Source of the DNA: a virus
Strand: one strand, 5' to 3'
Virus record (IMG/VR): IMGVR_UViG_3300045988_101425
Span: 1-59,460 of that record
DNA: 59,460 bases
In this document: in pieces, positions 37,573-43,935 of the stretch
How the letters are laid out: each line of letters begins with the position of its first letter
Position numbering within the stretch: the stretch's first letter is position 1
Made by a program: the position numbers and the translations under genes
Notes under the pieces: generated by a model
Told to the model about the DNA's origin: nothing
Databases searched by the model: none
Seen by the model: only the letters and a program-made list of their open reading frames with translations

Positions 37573-37695
37573 TGGACGGTGCCAGAATCGAACCGGCCTC
37601 TTTACGTCATGCGCACTCCGTAACGTTTCATCCCGGAATACTTACCGCCCGAAATCCCCGCATATCCTCACGGACGGCGGGGATAATCATTCTAA
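37573..37695 (-). ncRNA. tRNA-like module TL3 (H hairpin + variable-arm-like hairpin + T-arm)
   Basis: Minus strand has T-arm GCCGG-TTCGATT-CTGGC (37581-37597), hairpin TTACG-gagtgcgcatga-CGTAA and motif H1. I found no pairing partner for the 3' ACCGTCC. Confidence 0.35.
37656..37682 (-). promoter_or_regulatory. Hairpin motif H1
   Basis: Minus strand CCCCGC-CGTCCGTGAGGATAT-GCGGGG. The loop can form UCC-GUGA-GGA (a GNRA tetraloop). Confidence 0.55.
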
Positions 37696-37730
37696 CCCAA
37701 ATCTAATACCATGAAAAACACACTCTAATA

Positions 37731-38189
37731 TTAATTATCTGTTTTGCCCTTTGGTACGCTATCAGCGTCAAACGGGAAGATGTCCATAATAAGGGTCTCG
37801 CTTACCATTGCCAAGGTATAATCCGCCAAGGTCCCTTTCATATTCTCCTCGAAGCATGAGATCGCTTCCTTTAGGTTGCTCGCCTGCACTATGAATCTGG
37901 CCGCTGTTTTCTTCTCCATACCGCTTCTCTCATCAAGCGTGATAAAATAGACCTTAATATCGTAAAATCTATCACCGTTATCGTTAAAGAACAGTTCCGA
38001 TATCTTTTTACGGGTTATATCGGCGATAGTGAACTCTCCGGTAATGTACGGTCTTAATTCCTCTATCGTGCGTGCTTCCGCCTCCGTATAGGATAGAGCG
38101 TCCACTAAATAAGGTTCGACCACTCTTTTTTGTATGCCGTTCTCCAGCATCTTTTCATATGATACCTTGCAAATAAACCAGTTTCTCAT
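37731..38189 (-). CDS. Conserved phage protein (DUF4494-like, from memory)
   Basis: MRNWFICKVSYEKMLENGIQKRVVEPYLVDALSYTEAEARTIEEL. Confidence 0.5.
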   Translation of the reverse strand: MRNWFICKVSYEKMLENGIQKRVVEPYLVDALSYTEAEARTIEELRPYITGEFTIADITRKKISELFFNDNGDRFYDIKVYFITLDERSGMEKKTAARFIVQASNLKEAISCFEENMKGTLADYTLAMVSETLIMDIFPFDADSVPKGKTDN

Positions 38190-38195
38190 AACTTG

Positions 38196-38390
38196 TTAAT
38201 AATTAATGTTGTACTTCTTTCTTTCGTATTGTGGTACATACCCCTTACAAGGGGTGTTCCCATCAAATAGGGCCGTAGCCTTTGTTTCCCCATCTTTTTT
38301 AGACGGGTCTTTCCAATGCTTTTGCCGTTGATGGCAAAGGCAATGTCTTTTAGAGCAAGCCTCATTGAGGCAGTATTTAAGATCTCTCAT
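38196..38390 (-). CDS. Cys/His-rich small protein
   Basis: 64-aa ORF, CLNEACSKRHCLCH... Confidence 0.5.
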   Translation of the reverse strand: MRDLKYCLNEACSKRHCLCHQRQKHWKDPSKKDGETKATALFDGNTPCKGYVPQYERKKYNINY

Positions 38391-38544
38391 TTTTCTTATA
38401 GGTTTCCAGCTTCCTTACCTCCTTTTTAAGGAGTCTGGCCGCATCCATGTATTTGACGCTGCCATAAGAGGCAGTAGTAATAATGTTGGTATGCCTCACG
38501 ATCTTATTGATAAGGTAATTTGGAGGCCTGTCGCTTTTTCTCAT
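38377..38544 (-). CDS. Hypothetical protein (55 aa from the internal ATG)
   Basis: MRKSDRPPNYLINKIV... The longer track ORF overlaps gene 38547-38981. Confidence 0.45.
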   Translation of the reverse strand: MRKSDRPPNYLINKIVRHTNIITTASYGSVKYMDAARLLKKEVRKLETYKKNERS

Positions 38545-38546
38545 GA

Positions 38547-38981
38547 CTAAAAATTCGATAGGTTTCTCATGAAATCGTATTCGGATATATCCCGAAGGAA
38601 TACCGAGAAAAGCACGTCCTTCACACGTTCGTACAGATCCATGAACTCGGCCTCGTCCATCTTGTCGAAGGCTATCGACTTCGGGATCTCTATCCATTCC
38701 TTACGTGATATGCTATAGGCCGTATCGCAATGCCCGGCGGCGATCTCAACGGCCTTCCGGAAGCACTCCACGCTTTCCTTGAAATGCGTCGTGATCTTCT
38801 CGTTCTGGTAAGACCATGCGCAATTTATCAAGGCGAAATACTTCCTATGGAAATCTATGTTCCGTGCCAGCGTTATCTTGGCCTTGTAAATCTTGCCTAG
38901 CTTGAGCTTTTTCTTCTCGTCATAGTCGGAATCATAGCATGGCCTCAATCCGCCGGCGGTGTTGAGCAAGTATAGTTCCAT
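38547..38981 (-). CDS. Recombination-module protein (NinB/Orf- or DUF1367-like candidate)
   Basis: 144 aa between the SSB-like gene and ninG, with ARNIDFHRKYFALINCAW. Weak call. Confidence 0.35.
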   Translation of the reverse strand: MELYLLNTAGGLRPCYDSDYDEKKKLKLGKIYKAKITLARNIDFHRKYFALINCAWSYQNEKITTHFKESVECFRKAVEIAAGHCDTAYSISRKEWIEIPKSIAFDKMDEAEFMDLYERVKDVLFSVFLRDISEYDFMRNLSNF

Positions 38982-38983
38982 GA

Positions 38984-39289
38984 TTAAAAGGGGAGATCTG
39001 AATCATCGACCGATGGGGCGTTGTTGATATCCTCCGGTGAGGGGATATTGCTCTTGAACGTGGATTCCATCAAGTCACCTATGCCATAATAAACGCCTTC
39101 CTTTCGCTCCTCTTTCCTTGGGGCGCAAGACACATAATGCGTATAGGTGCGGTTATCGAACGTGACAGGCTCTTTTTTCTCCCCGATCGAGATATTGAGG
39201 AAGATCTTCTCTCCCTTGGCCGTCATTACTTTTTTCATCAACTCCTTCGGTATGTCGCTCAAGCAGATTGAGCCGTATAAATTCGCCAT
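38984..39289 (-). CDS. SSB-like protein with an acidic C-terminal tip
   Basis: Ends in ...SVDDSDLPF, resembling the SSB tail DDDIPF. Adjacent to erf. Confidence 0.5.
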   Translation of the reverse strand: MANLYGSICLSDIPKELMKKVMTAKGEKIFLNISIGEKKEPVTFDNRTYTHYVSCAPRKEERKEGVYYGIGDLMESTFKSNIPSPEDINNAPSVDDSDLPF

Positions 39290-39322
39290 AATGTTTATGA
39301 TTTTAAATTTTAGATTTATAAG

Positions 39323-39385
39323 CGGGGCGGTCGGTTATTCGCTACGGCGGGGATAACCACCGTCCCGTAGCCACGGCATGCGTGG
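39323..39385 (-). other. GC-rich double hairpin in the intergenic gap (attenuator-like)
   Basis: cggggcggtcggttat pairs with ataaccaccgtcccg, plus CCACG-gcatg-CGTGG. Shares the 13-mer TTATCCCCGCCGT with TL3. Confidence 0.4.
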
Positions 39386-39386
39386 A

Positions 39387-42622: not shown

Positions 42623-42907
42623 TTAATGTGGTCTCGTCTTTTTGGAAAAGAACCTTTCCTGAGCGAGCTTTACGTCCACTAGGATATATTTGCCATTTTG
42701 TTTTATGGCATCCCCGAAAATCCCCTTTTTCTTGTATCTCGCTATGGTGGATGTACTTACTTGGAGCAATTTCGCCAAGGAATCTAGTCCCCTAACGTAT
42801 TTCCGGGATGGATCTTCTTCTTTTTGGGTGGCTAGCCTTGATATGATCAAGTCCGCTAGTTGTCCGGCTGTCACTTGGGTTGCCGGTAATTCCGCTATAT
42901 TCTCCAT
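42623..42907 (-). CDS. HTH DNA-binding protein (excisionase/MerR-like)
   Basis: SLAKLLQVSTSTIARYKKKGIFGDAIKQNGKYILVD. Confidence 0.6.
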   Translation of the reverse strand: MENIAELPATQVTAGQLADLIISRLATQKEEDPSRKYVRGLDSLAKLLQVSTSTIARYKKKGIFGDAIKQNGKYILVDVKLAQERFFSKKTRPH

Positions 42908-42917
42908 ATTGTTATTG

Positions 42918-43307
42918 TTATAATGTTATATTCCTCCCTCTACAGCCTCTAAAAGCCCTAGAGGATATCTCTATTCTAGCTATGGACCGGCACCTTTGCC
43001 TTGCCCTTCTCATTTCCAAATGAGAATCCACGCAAAGGATAAGTAGCAAGACGCACGCCACGGCTGAATGAACCATCTGTTGTATATTTACGTTAGCCTT
43101 TATATCGCACAGTCTCTCGCATAGCTTTATGGCCAATTCCCTTCCGTTCCTTACGCCAAGTATCTCGAAAGCCGTCCTTAGCTGGTTTATGATAGTATGC
43201 AACGACCTGTGTTTTTTCTCGGCTATCTCCTTTTTCTCGAATCCCACGGCGTAATACTGGGCCGTGTAATCACATTCCTCGGTTAACTCGGTGAATACCC
43301 TTTCCAT
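42918..43307 (-). CDS. LuxR/GerE-type HTH regulator with a hydrophobic C-terminal segment
   Basis: GFEKKEIAEKKHRSLHTIINQLRTAFEILGVRNGRELAIKL. Confidence 0.65.
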   Translation of the reverse strand: MERVFTELTEECDYTAQYYAVGFEKKEIAEKKHRSLHTIINQLRTAFEILGVRNGRELAIKLCERLCDIKANVNIQQMVHSAVACVLLLILCVDSHLEMRRARQRCRSIARIEISSRAFRGCRGRNITL

Positions 43308-43313
43308 GATCTG

Positions 43314-43511
43314 TCATGTTAAGCGTCTGACATAAACGATCCCTTCTTCCTTGTTTGATACGGAAGACCATTTTCTTCCCTCTCTATAATACTTAGCGTT
43401 TAACAGAGACACGTTATTTCTAACCGTCTCTAACACTTCTATAGGGAATGATAGTTTCTCAGATACTTTCATTTCTCTGATCTTTCTTTTGCTTTCCACT
43501 TTTTTCTGCAT
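43314..43511 (-). CDS. First early protein (65 aa, basic)
   Basis: First ORF after the early promoter and leader. Confidence 0.5.
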   Translation of the reverse strand: MQKKVESKRKIREMKVSEKLSFPIEVLETVRNNVSLLNAKYYREGRKWSSVSNKEEGIVYVRRLT

Positions 43512-43540
43512 GATTTACATTTCCTTTTTATTTATAATAG

Positions 43541-43593
43541 CTCCCCTACAACCTCCAACGGTTTCGAACCCGAATCATAGACGGGTGGGGGAG
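43541..43593. repeat. Structured repeat B
   Basis: ctcccctacaacctccaacggtttcgaacccgaatcatagacgggtgggggag. Shares the 28-nt core acaacctccaacggtttcgaacccgaat with repeat A. Confidence 0.6.
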
Positions 43594-43605
43594 TGTATCT
43601 TATGC

Positions 43606-43672
43606 GTTAGATAGACAGTTTGACACCGATACGGAAATATCCGTACTTCACTGACACGACGTAATATCTAAC
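43606..43672 (-). ncRNA. Symmetric stem-loop element in the early leader
   Basis: The outer 8-bp stem pairs 43606-43613 with 43665-43672 (plus strand gttagata/tatctaac). The apical hairpin reads TACGGA-tatt-TCCGTA on the minus strand. It is flanked by direct GTGTCA repeats. Confidence 0.45.
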
Positions 43673-43694
43673 CTTTGTATATACATTATTAAAT

Positions 43695-43730
43695 ATGTAG
43701 ACTCCAACGTCGGAACCGATTAAACTACAT
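43695..43730. repeat. Diverged relative (C) of repeats A and B
   Basis: ATGTAG...CTACAT closing stem. Inner hairpin GAC-TCCAAC-GTC has the same loop as A/B with a covarying stem. Confidence 0.45.
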
Positions 43731-43861
43731 CGGGAGCGGGGATCATCATCCCTTCCGGTATCTTCGCCTATCATAACCTTACCACCATACCTATATCTCT
43801 TGCGTATATCCTCTTATGGGGATAAGGATTTTATTCAATAAGTCAAAGAACTCTTTTTTAG

Positions 43862-43935
43862 TAGCCCTTCCGGGACTCAAACCCGGGACCTGCGGTTTAG
43901 GAAACCGTCGCTCTGTTCGTCTGAGCTAAAGGACC
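43862..43935 (-). tRNA. tRNA-Arg (CCT)
   Basis: GGTCCTT-TA-GCTC..GAGC-loop TTCCTAA-T-arm CCGGG TTTGAGT CCCGG-AAGGGCT-A. 74 nt, cloverleaf folded by hand. Confidence 0.85.

What the first reader, a model, noticed from the sequence alone, without database searches (positions are those of the whole stretch)
37573..43935. Early operon is punctuated by tRNAs, tRNA-like modules and related hairpin repeats
Nearly every intergenic gap above about 100 nt in the leftward early operon holds structured RNA rather than empty spacer. There are two hand-foldable tRNAs (Arg-CCT at 43862-43935 and CAT at 41194-41268). There are also three modules with canonical T-arms (GGTTCGAnT type) but no complete cloverleaf: TL2 at 40571, TL3 at 37573 and TL4 at 41396. 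A fourth, TL1, sits in the bro leader at 6507.

The modules share exact blocks:
- CCCCGGCTACCAC (13 nt) in TL1 and TL4
- TTATCCCCGCCGT (13 nt) in TL3 and the 39323 element
- CGTCCGTGAGGATAT (15 nt) in TL3 and the gap next to tRNA-CAT

A 13-mer recurs by chance in 59 kb with probability of roughly 0.002, so these blocks look like one diverging family.

Two inferences follow. They could act as RNase P/Z processing punctuation of the polycistronic transcript. Alternatively they could be decoys or substrates linked to the phage RtcB ligase.
Basis: partly seen in the sequence, partly recalled or inferred. Interest (0 to 1): 0.75.

Follow-up and report, generated by a model that had tools for sequence, protein, structure and literature searches.

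The report
Phage operon punctuated by tRNA-like RNAs
A gut Bacteroides phage fills the gaps of its early operon with two real tRNAs, four tRNA-shaped elements that cannot decode, and a copy of a host regulatory small RNA (FopS) with no promoter or terminator of its own, probably so that tRNA-processing enzymes cut the long transcript and release that small RNA.

Summary
ARAGORN and Rfam call only tRNA-Arg(CCU) and tRNA-Met(CAU). TL1–TL4 have genuine T-arms at the stated coordinates, and all three shared exact blocks are present and non-random.

The gap holding TL3 starts with a phage copy of the Bacteroidales FopS sRNA, with a 23-nt seed identical to the family consensus.
- Chromosomal FopS genes have their own promoter (113/119) and a U-run terminator (114/119).
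- Phage copies almost never have either (1/114 and 13/114).
- Instead, 54 of 58 are followed within a few nucleotides by a tRNA-shaped element (Fisher p = 2e-9).

In related phages every "tRNA slot" keeps the acceptor/T-arm half. The anticodon arm may be canonical, enlarged, replaced by 36–130-nt inserts, or deleted.

Best reading (confidence about 0.55, no RNA-end data): these elements act as RNase P/Z cleavage signals, like mitochondrial tRNA punctuation. They would segment the single-promoter early transcript and form the 3' end of the FopS mimic.

The RtcB decoy idea finds no support. I rate this a new variant of known kinds, interest about 0.7.

The parts
44014..44021 (-). Bacteroides-type -7 box (TATATTTG) of the leftward early promoter, upstream of tRNA-Arg. 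It is the only such box in any gap of the operon strand down to 37 kb, apart from one lying inside the sRNA seed.
   Evidence: (repeat D14)
43862..43935 (-). tRNA-Arg (anticodon CCU), canonical. In relatives this slot also holds an 87-nt long-variable-arm form or a non-canonical tRNA-like of about 105 nt.
43806..43825 (-). Short hairpin UAUCC-CCAUAAGA-GGAUA in the tRNA-Arg trailer. It resembles the FopS-type hairpin ends (UUAUCCCC...GAGGAUAU).
   Evidence: direct reading
43543..43591 (-). Hairpin-repeat element, copy 1 (CCCCCACCCG...GGUUCGAAACC...GUAGGGG), about 30 nt upstream of the start codon at 43511.
   Evidence: (D2)
42571..42618 (-). Long, near-perfect hairpin (CUUCCGGCUUAUGG...CAUAAGCCGGAAG) with no U-run. 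The fold of its gap has z = -4.25.
42503..42550 (-). Hairpin-repeat element, copy 2, about 25 nt upstream of the ATG at 42478.
42058..42214 (-). Gap with four stable hairpins (z = -3.05). It has no T-arm, its function is unknown, and it is a mosaic junction in relatives.
41466..41486 (-). Hairpin P0 (CCCUAGG-loop-CUAGGG) immediately 5' of TL4. Relatives show a compensatory GC<->AU change.
41395..41464 (-). TL4, a tRNA-like three-way junction: acceptor-like stem GGUAGCU/GGCUACC, an AU-rich arm replacing the D and anticodon arms, and a T-arm GGGGG/CCCCC. Relatives carry a long form with about 55 extra nt holding two covarying hairpins.
41273..41293 (-). Hairpin GCCGGGG-UGGGAUU-CCCCGGC, 4 nt upstream of tRNA-Met.
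   Evidence: direct reading; also conserved in relatives (L006, L068, L120)
41194..41268 (-). tRNA-Met (anticodon CAU), canonical. Of 41 unique variants of this slot in relatives, 19 are canonical Met, 14 have the anticodon arm deleted, 5 are Leu-like scaffolds with 110-130-nt inserts and 3 are partial.
41111..41188 (-). Conserved tRNA-Met trailer: hairpin CACCCCUAGGGGUG, an AU-rich single-stranded stretch, then a FopS-type hairpin (AGGUCUC-CG-UCC-GUGA-GGA-UAU-GAGGCCU) followed by UUUU. It is a candidate 3'-trailer-derived sRNA.
40570..40613 (-). TL2: T-arm UCCGGG-UUCGACU-CCCGGA with a weak acceptor (GGCGGCC/GGCUGAC, 6 of 7 pairs) and an 11-nt connector, ending about 20 nt before the ERF start codon. 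Its T-arm is a paralogue of the T-arm of a 68-nt tRNA-like present in relatives. Its 3' edge is a mosaic junction (40567).
40614..40729 (-). Conserved non-coding region upstream of TL2. A long-range helix is supported by one compensatory change (GAUAUC/GAUAUC to GAUAGC/GCUAUC). The 87-aa ORF at 40519-40782 that overlaps it is not coding, because relatives carry frame-shifting indels.
39323..39385 (-). The '39323 element': two hairpins in a gap of about 96 nt. Many relatives lack it entirely, with the flanking ORFs only 2 nt apart. It shares the 13-mer UUAUCCCCGCCGU with the FopS-type hairpin.
37699..37721 (-). Seed of the phage FopS-like sRNA (GUGUUUUUCAUGGUAUUAGAUUU). It is identical to the 5' consensus of Rfam RF04319, starts 9 nt after the DUF4494 stop codon, and is predicted to be unpaired.
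37654..37684 (-). FopS-type hairpin AUCCCCGC-C-GUCC-GUGA-GGAU-AU-GCGGGGAU with no U-run.
37572..37650 (-). TL3 ('type A' tRNA-like): 7-bp acceptor with G3.U70 and A73, a weak D-arm, a 5-bp anticodon stem closing a 12-nt loop, and a canonical T-arm. It begins 3 nt after the hairpin and ends 19 nt before the next start codon.
6506..6547 (-). TL1: minihelix GGUAG/CUACC with an 11-nt connector and T-arm CCGGGG-UUCAAGU-CCCCGG, inside a nearly invariant leader of about 400 nt upstream of the Bro-N/ANT gene. The hairpin just upstream of it is supported by a compensatory series.

Best explanation
The window is the circular genome of a temperate Bacteroides siphovirus. Its leftward early operon starts at one promoter upstream of tRNA-Arg. 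The gaps between ORF cassettes hold exchangeable RNA modules:
- two decoding tRNAs (Arg-CCU and Met-CAU);
- four tRNA-shaped elements (TL3, TL4, TL2, TL1) that keep the acceptor/T-arm half of a tRNA but have an oversized, replaced or missing anticodon arm;
- a phage copy of the host FopS small RNA directly upstream of TL3;
- hairpins derived from the FopS terminator.

The most likely mechanism is tRNA punctuation. The long polycistronic transcript is cut by host RNase P at the 5' edge, and by RNase Z or an equivalent at the 3' edge, of every tRNA and tRNA-like element. This would give mRNA segments with short AU-rich leaders and release the flanking small RNAs.

The clearest case is the FopS mimic. 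It lacks the promoter and the U-tract terminator of chromosomal FopS genes, and its hairpin ends 3 nt before TL3. RNase P cleavage at TL3 would therefore create its 3' end. Its seed is identical to host FopS, so the released sRNA would repress translation of SusC-type outer-membrane transporter mRNAs while the early operon is on.

Shown here: the sequences, the folds, the slot conservation and the statistical association. Inferred: the cleavages themselves, how the sRNA 5' end is made, and the regulatory effect.
For: Only two elements are callable tRNAs.

All six GC-rich T-arm modules lie on the operon strand in non-coding gaps.

The operon strand has a single -7-box promoter at 44021-44014 and no other in any gap down to 37 kb. 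No operon-strand intrinsic terminators lie in the gaps.

The TL3 gap matches RF04319 FopS at 33 bits (gathering score 56), and its first 23 nt are identical to the consensus. The published role of that seed is translational repression of susC mRNAs (PMC11697453).

Chromosomal and phage copies of the exact seed differ sharply:
- Promoter: 113/119 chromosomal against 1/114 phage.
- U-run: 114/119 against 13/114.
- T-loop motif downstream: 5/119 against 78/114.
Fisher tests for promoter and U-run give p = 7e-58 and 5e-44.

Among unique phage loci, 54 of 58 terminator-less copies are followed by a tRNA-shaped element. Only 1 of 13 copies with a U-run is (p = 1.7e-9).

The slot after the sRNA holds at least five unrelated tRNA-shaped types. 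All have intact acceptor and T-arms, but their centres are non-homologous.

In the tRNA-Met slot, 14 of 41 variants have the anticodon arm cleanly deleted while acceptor, D-arm and T-arm are kept. The tRNA-Arg slot shows a similar range.

TL4 shows 5 compensatory pairs.

Type A is always preceded by the sRNA, in 38 of 38 unique contexts.

The composite folds modularly, with the seed unpaired.

Promoter-less chromosomal FopS copies sit directly after tRNA genes in L250, L270 and L297, as does phage locus L080. Coupling FopS biogenesis to tRNA processing therefore recurs.

The modules end 15-35 nt before start codons.
Against: No transcript-end data of any kind were available, so every cleavage is inferred.

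The related phages are about 90-97% identical over much of the region. Conservation of TL1, TL2 and type A therefore says little.

TL2 has a weak acceptor, and its gap is no more stable than its shuffles (z = +1.28).

Four of 58 terminator-less phage copies have no tRNA-like element downstream, for example L092.

How the sRNA 5' end is formed is unexplained. A conserved palindromic TAATATTA centred near -9 (58/114 copies) could be an unrecognised promoter. The PM2 consensus could not be retrieved to test this.

The hairpin alone might stabilise a 3' end without any RNase P cut.

The Rfam FopS score is below the gathering score (33 against 56 bits).
Confidence: 0.55

Rival explanations
1. The tRNA-like elements are decaying tRNA genes and recombination scars with no function. 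On this view a temperate phage family carrying a tRNA cluster is losing it piecemeal, and the FopS copy is a passenger.
For: The family is highly mosaic, and junctions coincide with module edges. Clearly truncated forms exist, such as L058, which keeps only a 3' half. Canonical and defective versions of the same slot coexist. High overall identity makes conservation uninformative.
Against: Decay should hit acceptor and T-arms as often as anticodon arms. Instead the top half is intact in essentially every variant, and the changes are clean replacements or deletions of the anticodon region. Slots are almost never empty. There are compensatory changes in TL4. The tRNA-like element anticorrelates with a U-run terminator after the sRNA (p = 1.7e-9), which neutral decay does not predict.
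Confidence: 0.2
2. The modules act mainly at the DNA level, as short conserved sequences that promote homologous or illegitimate recombination between phages. They would be cassette-junction or 'linker' elements, analogous to the PeSL elements of T4-type phages. Their RNA structure would be incidental.
For: The hairpin-repeat core is nearly invariant, loops included, and precedes at least 10 different downstream genes. TL2's 3' edge (40567), the borders of the 39323 element and the TL3 flanks are exchange points. L083 is a hybrid between the hairpin repeat and the TL4 T-arm.
Against: All modules are strand-specific. Variation in the stems tolerates G.U (the C-G, U.G, U-A series). There are compensatory pairs in TL4. 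This view does not explain why the modules are tRNA-shaped, nor the link between the sRNA terminator and the tRNA-like element. It is not exclusive of the processing model.
Confidence: 0.12
3. The elements are decoys or substrates tied to the phage RtcB ligase. They would soak up host anticodon nucleases, or would be cut and re-ligated by RtcB.
For: RtcB (27875-29089) is encoded at the end of the same leftward unit. The elements have non-canonical anticodon regions.
Against: RtcB is about 8.5 kb from TL3, and no Rsr/TROVE, archease or nuclease gene lies beside it. There is no YrlA or other Rfam match. Many variants have no anticodon loop at all (TL1, TL2, the anticodon-arm-deleted Met), so they cannot mimic an anticodon-nuclease target. 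The centres of type B elements share no conserved exon-like anticodon stem, so they are not spliced introns. RNase P/Z ends are not RtcB substrates (established chemistry).
Confidence: 0.06
4. They are functional but unusual decoding tRNAs. Examples would be the short form of TL4 as a D-armless UCA (opal) suppressor, or TL3 and L051 as expanded-loop frameshift suppressors.
For: The short form of TL4 has a 7-nt loop AUUCAUA on a long stem. L051's element scores 47.5 bits as a tRNA and has an 8-nt loop.
Against: The long form of TL4 carries about 55 extra nt in that arm. TL3's loop is 12 nt with no U33. Centres are non-homologous between near-identical phages. Neither Rfam nor default ARAGORN calls them.
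Confidence: 0.04

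Closest known systems
FopS / GibS small RNAs of Bacteroides (Rfam RF04319, RF04182; PMC11697453, PMC7366714)
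   Same: The 23-nt 5' seed is identical. A spacer and then a hairpin whose apical GUC(C)-GUGA-G(G)AC/U stem-loop resembles the host terminator loop follow. The total length up to the hairpin is about 70 nt. The paper itself noted a BLAST hit in one Caudovirales phage.
   Different: There is no sigma-ABfr promoter and no U-tract. The copy sits inside an operon, 9 nt after an ORF stop, and is followed within 3 nt by a tRNA-like element. It scores 33 bits against a gathering score of 56, whereas chromosomal copies score 68-78.
Mitochondrial tRNA punctuation and plant mitochondrial t-elements (PMC1920247)
   Same: tRNAs, and tRNA-like elements that retain acceptor and T-arm features, lie between cistrons of a polycistronic transcript and are proposed to define mRNA 5' and 3' ends through RNase P and RNase Z.
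   Different: This is a bacteriophage operon rather than an organelle. The elements are exchangeable cassettes, and one is coupled to a trans-acting sRNA. Processing has been shown in mitochondria but is not shown here.
MALAT1-mascRNA / MEN-beta 3'-end formation, and MHV68 tRNA-miRNA (TMER) transcripts (own knowledge)
   Same: A tRNA-like structure next to a regulatory RNA serves as the RNase P or RNase Z cleavage signal that generates the mature end of that RNA, in place of a canonical terminator.
   Different: Those are eukaryotic nuclear or herpesviral systems with a different enzymology context. Here the partner RNA is a bacterial base-pairing sRNA.
RNase P-matured phage regulatory RNAs: the C4 antisense RNA of P1/P7 and the CI RNA of P4 (own knowledge)
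   Same: These are phage-encoded regulatory RNAs cut out of longer transcripts by host RNase P.
   Different: In those cases the regulatory RNA itself mimics the acceptor stem and its 5' end is made by RNase P. Here a separate tRNA-shaped module lies 3' of the sRNA.
YrlA (bacterial Y-RNA-like tRNA mimics in rsr-rtcB operons; PMC4201824)
   Same: They are non-decoding RNAs with tRNA-like T-arm, D-arm and acceptor modules, found in genomes (including phages) that encode RtcB.
   Different: There is no Ro60/Rsr gene in the window and no Rfam YrlA match. In YrlA the RNA termini form the Ro-binding stem rather than the acceptor stem. RtcB is not adjacent here.
tRNA 3'-trailer (3'ETS) derived sRNAs, and tRNA-linked FopS copies in Segatella/Prevotella chromosomes
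   Same: sRNAs are co-transcribed with tRNAs and freed by tRNA processing. L250, L270, L297 and phage L080 show FopS seeds starting 3-13 nt after a tRNA 3' end. The tRNA-Met trailer in this window has the same layout.
   Different: In the TL3 gap the order is reversed (sRNA first, tRNA-like second), and the tRNA partner is non-decoding.

Membership tests
tRNA (Rfam RF00005), applied to TL1-TL4 | Scores at or above the Rfam gathering score (29 bits), or is called by ARAGORN at default settings | tested here: not met
   Only 41194-41268 and 43862-43935 are called. TL2, TL3 and TL4 are absent even at E<=10 in a 7.3-kb search, and TL1 is absent at E<=5 over the whole window.
tRNA (Rfam RF00005), applied to TL1-TL4 | Acceptor stem stacked on a T-arm carrying the conserved T-loop (TTCRANN closed by G53-C61) | tested here: met
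   TL3 has a 7/7 acceptor and a 5-bp T-stem. TL4 has 7 pairs (one U.G) and a 5-bp T-stem. TL1 has 5 + 6 bp. TL2 has 6 of 7 acceptor pairs and 5-6 T-stem pairs.
tRNA (Rfam RF00005), applied to TL1-TL4 | A 7-nt anticodon loop with U33 on a 5-bp stem | tested here: not met
   TL3 has a 12-nt loop GAGUGCGCAUGA with no U33. TL4's arm is an 11-bp AU helix, interrupted by about 55 extra nt in relatives. TL1 and TL2 have no such arm.
FopS sRNA family (RF04319) | Conserved 5' seed (R1', positions 1-21) | tested here: met
   Positions 1-23 are identical to the Rfam consensus. The same 23-mer occurs in at least 120 Bacteroidales genome contigs.
FopS sRNA family (RF04319) | Reaches the Rfam gathering score (56 bits) | tested here: not met
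   33 bits. Control chromosomal copies score 68-78 bits, and one phage copy with a terminator scores 77 bits.
FopS sRNA family (RF04319) | Own sigma-ABfr promoter (TAnnTTTG a few nt upstream of +1) | tested here: not met
   There is no -7 box upstream of 37721. 113/119 chromosomal copies have one against 1/114 phage copies.
FopS sRNA family (RF04319) | Rho-independent terminator (hairpin plus U-run) giving an RNA of about 65-70 nt | tested here: not met
   The hairpin is present at the right distance but is followed by UUC and then TL3. A U-run is found in 114/119 chromosomal copies against 13/114 phage copies.
FopS sRNA family (RF04319) | Binds RbpB and represses susC translation | not testable with these tools
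   These features were defined experimentally in PMC11697453. Here they would need EMSA and reporter assays.
tRNA punctuation / t-elements | tRNA or tRNA-like structures placed between cistrons of one transcription unit | tested here: met
   There is a single promoter and no terminators in the gaps. Six modules lie in inter-cistronic gaps on the coding strand.
tRNA punctuation / t-elements | Endonucleolytic cleavage by RNase P (5') and RNase Z (3') at the element borders | not testable with these tools
   Needs RNA end mapping or in-vitro cleavage.
YrlA / Y-RNA-like | Encoded next to an rsr (Ro60/TROVE) gene, with the termini forming the Ro-binding stem | tested here: not met
   No TROVE hit among the proteins tested around RtcB or in the operon. 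No Rfam hit. In these elements the termini form the acceptor stem.
tRNA gene with group I intron | An intron of about 200 nt or more matching Intron_gpI, with conserved exons that restore an anticodon stem-loop | tested here: not met
   No Intron_gpI hit in 8 loci carrying insert-bearing elements. The inserts are 36-124 nt, and the sequences flanking them are not conserved between variants.
attP / tRNA 3'-end integration site | Lies next to the integrase gene and marks prophage ends | tested here: not met
   The integrase is at 47204-48604, far from every module. The apparent clustering of contig ends near TL4 and tRNA-Met is caused by tandem coding repeats that break assemblies.

The most novel reading that the evidence does not exclude
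These phages may use the tRNA fold as a general-purpose scaffold and processing tag for regulatory RNAs.

The hypervariable 36-130-nt inserts that replace the anticodon region of the Leu-like 'type B' elements would themselves be payloads, either sRNA seeds or protein-binding sites. So would the extra arm of TL4. Both would be displayed on a stable acceptor/T-arm/D-arm body, excised by RNase P/Z, and perhaps CCA-tailed or even aminoacylated. TL3 carries the alanine identity set G3.U70 plus A73.

Together with the FopS mimic, this would amount to a phage toolkit of host-directed small RNAs whose biogenesis depends entirely on the host tRNA-maturation machinery.
Probability: 0.15. Interest if true: 0.85.

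Novelty: new variant of a known kind. Interest (0 to 1): 0.7.

Why it matters
If the model holds, there are three consequences.

1. It would be the first case in a bacteriophage of mitochondria-style tRNA punctuation by non-decoding tRNA mimics.
2. It would be a bacterial counterpart of MALAT1/mascRNA-type 3'-end formation for a base-pairing sRNA.
3. A widespread family of gut Bacteroides temperate phages (over 120 IMG/VR contigs) would be shown to carry a mimic of a host sRNA that shuts off SusC-type glycan transporters. That links phage induction to polysaccharide-utilisation control, and possibly to receptor down-regulation or superinfection exclusion.

The question is directly testable. 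An isolated relative (BF1-TP2 on B. fragilis BL19) and FopS reagents already exist.

There is also a practical warning. tRNA finders miss these elements, so intergenic 'spacers' in phage operons may hide functional RNA.

Tried and rejected
1. attP idea. Many related contigs, and the BF1-TP2 record, begin 300-900 nt upstream of ERF, close to TL4 and tRNA-Met. This suggested a prophage end inside a tRNA-like site. Rejected: those starts lie in 24/27-nt tandem coding repeats of a cassette that this window lacks, so they are assembly breaks. The integrase is also elsewhere.

2. Group I introns or other known ribozymes in the insert-bearing tRNA-like elements. No Rfam hit.

3. Protein-spliced introns (RtcB plus a nuclease). 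Rejected: the sequences on both sides of the inserts are not conserved, so no common anticodon stem would be restored.

4. YrlA/Rsr link. No TROVE protein and no Rfam hit.

5. Phage-internal targets of the seed. None found apart from a 3-mismatch site at 34980.

6. Alternative promoter PM2 for the phage sRNA. The consensus is only in a figure, so it could not be tested.

7. Covariation in the hairpin repeat, TL1, TL2 and type A. There is too little variation. Only single compensatory series were seen.

8. Thermodynamic z-scores. These were only moderately informative, and the TL2 gap is not unusually stable.

9. Relaxed ARAGORN. It recovers TL2-TL4, but alongside about 30 false positives, so it is not evidence on its own.

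10. The sigma-70 promoter scan is irrelevant to Bacteroides and was below shuffle expectation.

Full report
CONTEXT. The window carries a 55-nt terminal direct repeat (1-55 = 59406-59460), so it is a circularly assembled phage genome. Pfam and PHROG matches identify the following genes:
- a tyrosine integrase (47204-48604, minus strand);
- an HTH_3, CI-like gene (44052-44759, plus strand) divergent from a long leftward operon;
- within that operon: ERF (39863-40549), DUF1367/NinB-like, DUF4494 (37731-38189), NinG, DnaB, a Dam methylase and, at its far end, RtcB (27875-29089);
- a Bro-N/ANT gene at 5207-6421.

The closest deposited phage is Bacteroides phage BF1-TP2, 94% identical over 37656-40852. 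Its publication mentions neither tRNAs nor sRNAs.

CHECKING THE OBSERVATION. ARAGORN and Rfam at gathering thresholds find exactly two tRNAs: Arg-CCU (43862-43935) and Met-CAU (41194-41268), both on the minus strand. A T-loop pattern search and a purpose-written acceptor/T-arm scanner place all six GC-rich T-arm modules on the operon strand in non-coding gaps.

TL2, TL3 and TL4 are invisible to the Rfam tRNA model even at E<=10. ARAGORN recovers them only at relaxed thresholds, among about 30 false positives. They are therefore neither ordinary tRNAs nor chance.

In detail:
- TL3 (37572-37650) folds into a full cloverleaf: 7-bp acceptor (G3.U70, A73), perfect 5-bp anticodon stem and canonical T-arm. 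Its loop is 12 nt.
- TL4 (41395-41464) is a three-way junction of an acceptor-like stem, an AU-rich arm and a T-arm, preceded by a hairpin.
- TL1 and TL2 are minihelices with connectors of about 11 nt. TL2's acceptor is weak.

A permissive Rfam scan matched 37648-37721 (minus strand) to RF04319, the Bacteroidetes FopS sRNA family, and to GibS. The first 23 nt are identical to the consensus 5' end. According to PMC11697453, that 5' end is the seed with which the 14 FopS paralogues of B. thetaiotaomicron block translation initiation of susC-type transporter mRNAs, antagonised by the RNA-binding protein RbpB. The paper noted in passing a BLAST hit in one Caudovirales phage. TL3 begins 3 nt after it.

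COMPARATIVE EVIDENCE. I fetched 68 IMG/VR loci anchored on ERF. I also fetched at least 120 viral and at least 120 bacterial genome stretches that contain the exact seed.

Chromosomal copies come from across the Bacteroidales: Paludibacter, Muribaculaceae, Dysgonomonas, Parabacteroides, Segatella, Porphyromonas and others.
- They almost always have a TAnnTTTG -7 box a few nt upstream (113/119).
- They almost always have a hairpin followed by a U-run (114/119).
- Those tested reach the Rfam gathering score, at 68-78 bits.

Phage copies almost never have either feature (1/114 and 13/114). They start just after an ORF stop codon, and 78/114 have a T-loop motif downstream.

Among 84 unique phage loci:
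- 54 of the 58 with the phage-type hairpin and no U-run are followed by a tRNA-shaped element;
- only 1 of the 13 with a U-run is (Fisher p = 1.7e-9).

The element in that slot is of at least five unrelated types:
- the window's type A;
- a Leu-like scaffold with 36-, 65-, 114- or 124-nt inserts;
- an 85-nt 'Arg-GCG';
- one with an 8-nt loop that Rfam scores as a tRNA at 47.5 bits;
- and others.

All have an intact acceptor and T-arm, but their centres are non-homologous. Type A is never found without the sRNA upstream (38 of 38 unique contexts).

THE SAME RULE HOLDS IN THE OTHER SLOTS.
- tRNA-Met slot, 41 unique variants:
  - 19 canonical Met-CAU tRNAs, with several compensated anticodon stems;
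  - 14 in which the whole anticodon arm is deleted while acceptor, D-arm and T-arm remain;
  - 5 Leu-like scaffolds with 110-130-nt inserts;
  - 3 partial.
- tRNA-Arg slot: holds a 74-nt canonical form, an 87-nt long-variable-arm form, or a non-canonical element of about 105 nt.
- TL4: exists in a short form (this window) and a long form with about 55 extra nt. The long-form alignment has 31 consensus pairs, 5 with compensatory double changes. The acceptor and T-arm are invariant.
- TL2: its T-arm is a paralogue of the T-arm of a 68-nt tRNA-like with a 6-nt anticodon loop, present just upstream in relatives.
- TL1: lies in a leader of about 400 nt that is nearly invariant in 47 contigs. One compensatory series supports the neighbouring hairpin, and so supports the minihelix drawing.

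What selection keeps is the part of a tRNA recognised by RNase P, RNase Z and the CCA-adding enzyme. It does not keep the decoding part.

TRANSCRIPTION UNIT. On the operon strand the only Bacteroides-type -7 boxes in any gap between 44 kb and 37 kb are two. One is the early promoter at 44021-44014. The other lies inside the seed itself and is not conserved in relatives. No operon-strand intrinsic terminator lies in the gaps. The tRNAs, the tRNA-like elements and the sRNA are therefore most probably co-transcribed with the ORFs.

MECHANISM. I propose tRNA punctuation. RNase P would cut at the 5' edge, and RNase Z or an equivalent at the 3' edge, of each tRNA-shaped module. This would cut the early transcript into mRNAs with 15-35-nt AU-rich leaders and release the adjacent small RNAs.

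For the FopS mimic, the RNase P cut at TL3 replaces the lost terminator. The 33-nt seed region is predicted to be single-stranded in the composite.

Coupling FopS biogenesis to tRNA processing has independent precedents. Promoter-less chromosomal copies in Segatella copri and others start 3-13 nt after a tRNA 3' end, as does the copy in phage locus L080. The conserved trailer of tRNA-Met in this window (hairpin, AU-rich stretch, FopS-type hairpin, UUUU) looks like a second, trailer-derived sRNA.

The apical GUCC-GUGA-GGAU stem-loop sits on three different but always paired basal stems.

All cleavages, the origin of the sRNA 5' end and the regulatory effect on SusC mRNAs are inferences.

OTHER MODULES.
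- A hairpin repeat with a core of about 50 nt (43543-43591 and 42503-42550) is nearly invariant. It precedes at least ten different genes in relatives, so it is a cassette-junction element of unknown role.
- The 39323 element is an optional insert of about 96 nt.
- Two further gaps are strongly structured: 42058-42214 (z = -3.05) and the hairpin at 42571-42618 (z = -4.25).

RIVAL EXPLANATIONS.
- Neutral decay of a tRNA cluster explains the truncations. It does not explain the selective sparing of the top half, the occupancy of the slots, or the trade-off between terminator and tRNA-like element.
- A DNA-level recombination role is plausible for the junction elements and can coexist with the processing model.
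- The RtcB decoy or substrate idea has no positional, structural or chemical support.
- Unusual decoding tRNAs are excluded for most elements by their loops and inserts.

COMPARISON WITH KNOWN SYSTEMS. The sRNA is a 3'-remodelled phage variant of the FopS family. It meets the seed criterion but fails the promoter, terminator and gathering-score criteria. The tRNA-shaped elements work like plant mitochondrial t-elements and the mascRNA of MALAT1, but they are not members of any curated family. I found no prior description of this arrangement in phages.

VERDICT. This is a new variant of known kinds, with interest about 0.7 and confidence in the mechanism about 0.55.

Noticed in passing
window 1-55 and 59406-59460: An exact 55-nt terminal direct repeat. 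The window is a circularly assembled, complete phage genome of about 59.4 kb.
   Followed up: partly
window 42503-42550 and 43543-43591 (minus strand): A hairpin-repeat element with a core of about 50 nt containing GGUUCGAAACC. It is nearly invariant across relatives, loops included, and lies 25-35 nt upstream of the start codons of at least 10 different genes. This makes it a cassette-junction module of unknown function. Candidates are a 5' stabiliser, a protein or antiterminator site, or a recombination linker.
   Followed up: partly
window 7390-7405, 44006-44021 and about 46772-46787: The 16-mer TGATGATGCAAATATA (minus strand: TATATTTGCATCATCA, a Bacteroides -7 box plus 8 nt) recurs exactly at the early-left promoter and upstream of the small ORFs preceding the TL1 leader and the Bro-N/ANT (bro) gene. 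A near copy lies close to the integrase region. These may be co-regulated early promoters or operators.
   Followed up: no
window 6422-6823 (minus strand): The 400-nt leader of the Bro-N/ANT (bro) gene has its own -7 box (6689-6696). Downstream of TL1 there is a possible H-type pseudoknot (CGGUCAA..AUCCUCA..UUGACCG..UGAGGAU) and a second GGUAG/GCUACC pair that could compete with the TL1 acceptor. This may be a regulatory switch.
   Followed up: partly
L007, L010, L012, L013 and others (contig starts); cassette between the equivalents of window 40849 and 40852: Relatives carry an extra gene with 24- or 27-nt tandem coding repeats, absent from this window. It repeatedly breaks metagenomic assemblies, which creates the false impression of a common genome end.
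   Followed up: yes
L250 (Segatella copri chromosome), L270, L297: Chromosomal FopS-family sRNAs without promoters sit directly after tRNA genes. In S. copri the order is tRNA, FopS, tRNA, FopS-like. The exact 23-nt seed is found across many Bacteroidales families, well beyond the Bacteroidaceae range stated in the FopS paper.
   Followed up: partly
window 45020-45145 (both strands): Sub-threshold Rfam hits to Thr_leader (38 and 31 bits, gathering score 55) on both strands, in the region between the repressor gene and the next ORF. This is probably a palindromic or terminator-like sequence.
   Followed up: no
L083 (IMGVR_UViG_2915859413_000004): A hybrid in which the 3' arm of the hairpin repeat is fused to the 3' half of the TL4 T-arm (…GUGGGGGUGCGAAUUCCCCCGGCUACCAC). 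This is direct evidence for recombination between different RNA modules through GGGGG(U/A)GCGA microhomology.
   Followed up: no
window 37572-37650: TL3 carries G3.U70 with discriminator A73, the classical alanine identity set also used by tmRNA. Both are conserved in all six type-A sequence variants. It might therefore be a substrate for AlaRS.
   Followed up: no
window 43607-43774 (minus strand): The 55-aa ORF between the tRNA-Arg trailer and hairpin-repeat copy 1 has doubtful coding status. The stretch contains a hairpin (AUGUAG...CUACAU) with a D-arm-like UAGUUUAAUCGGU. If it is non-coding, the whole of 43512-43861 is one gap of about 350 nt.
   Followed up: no
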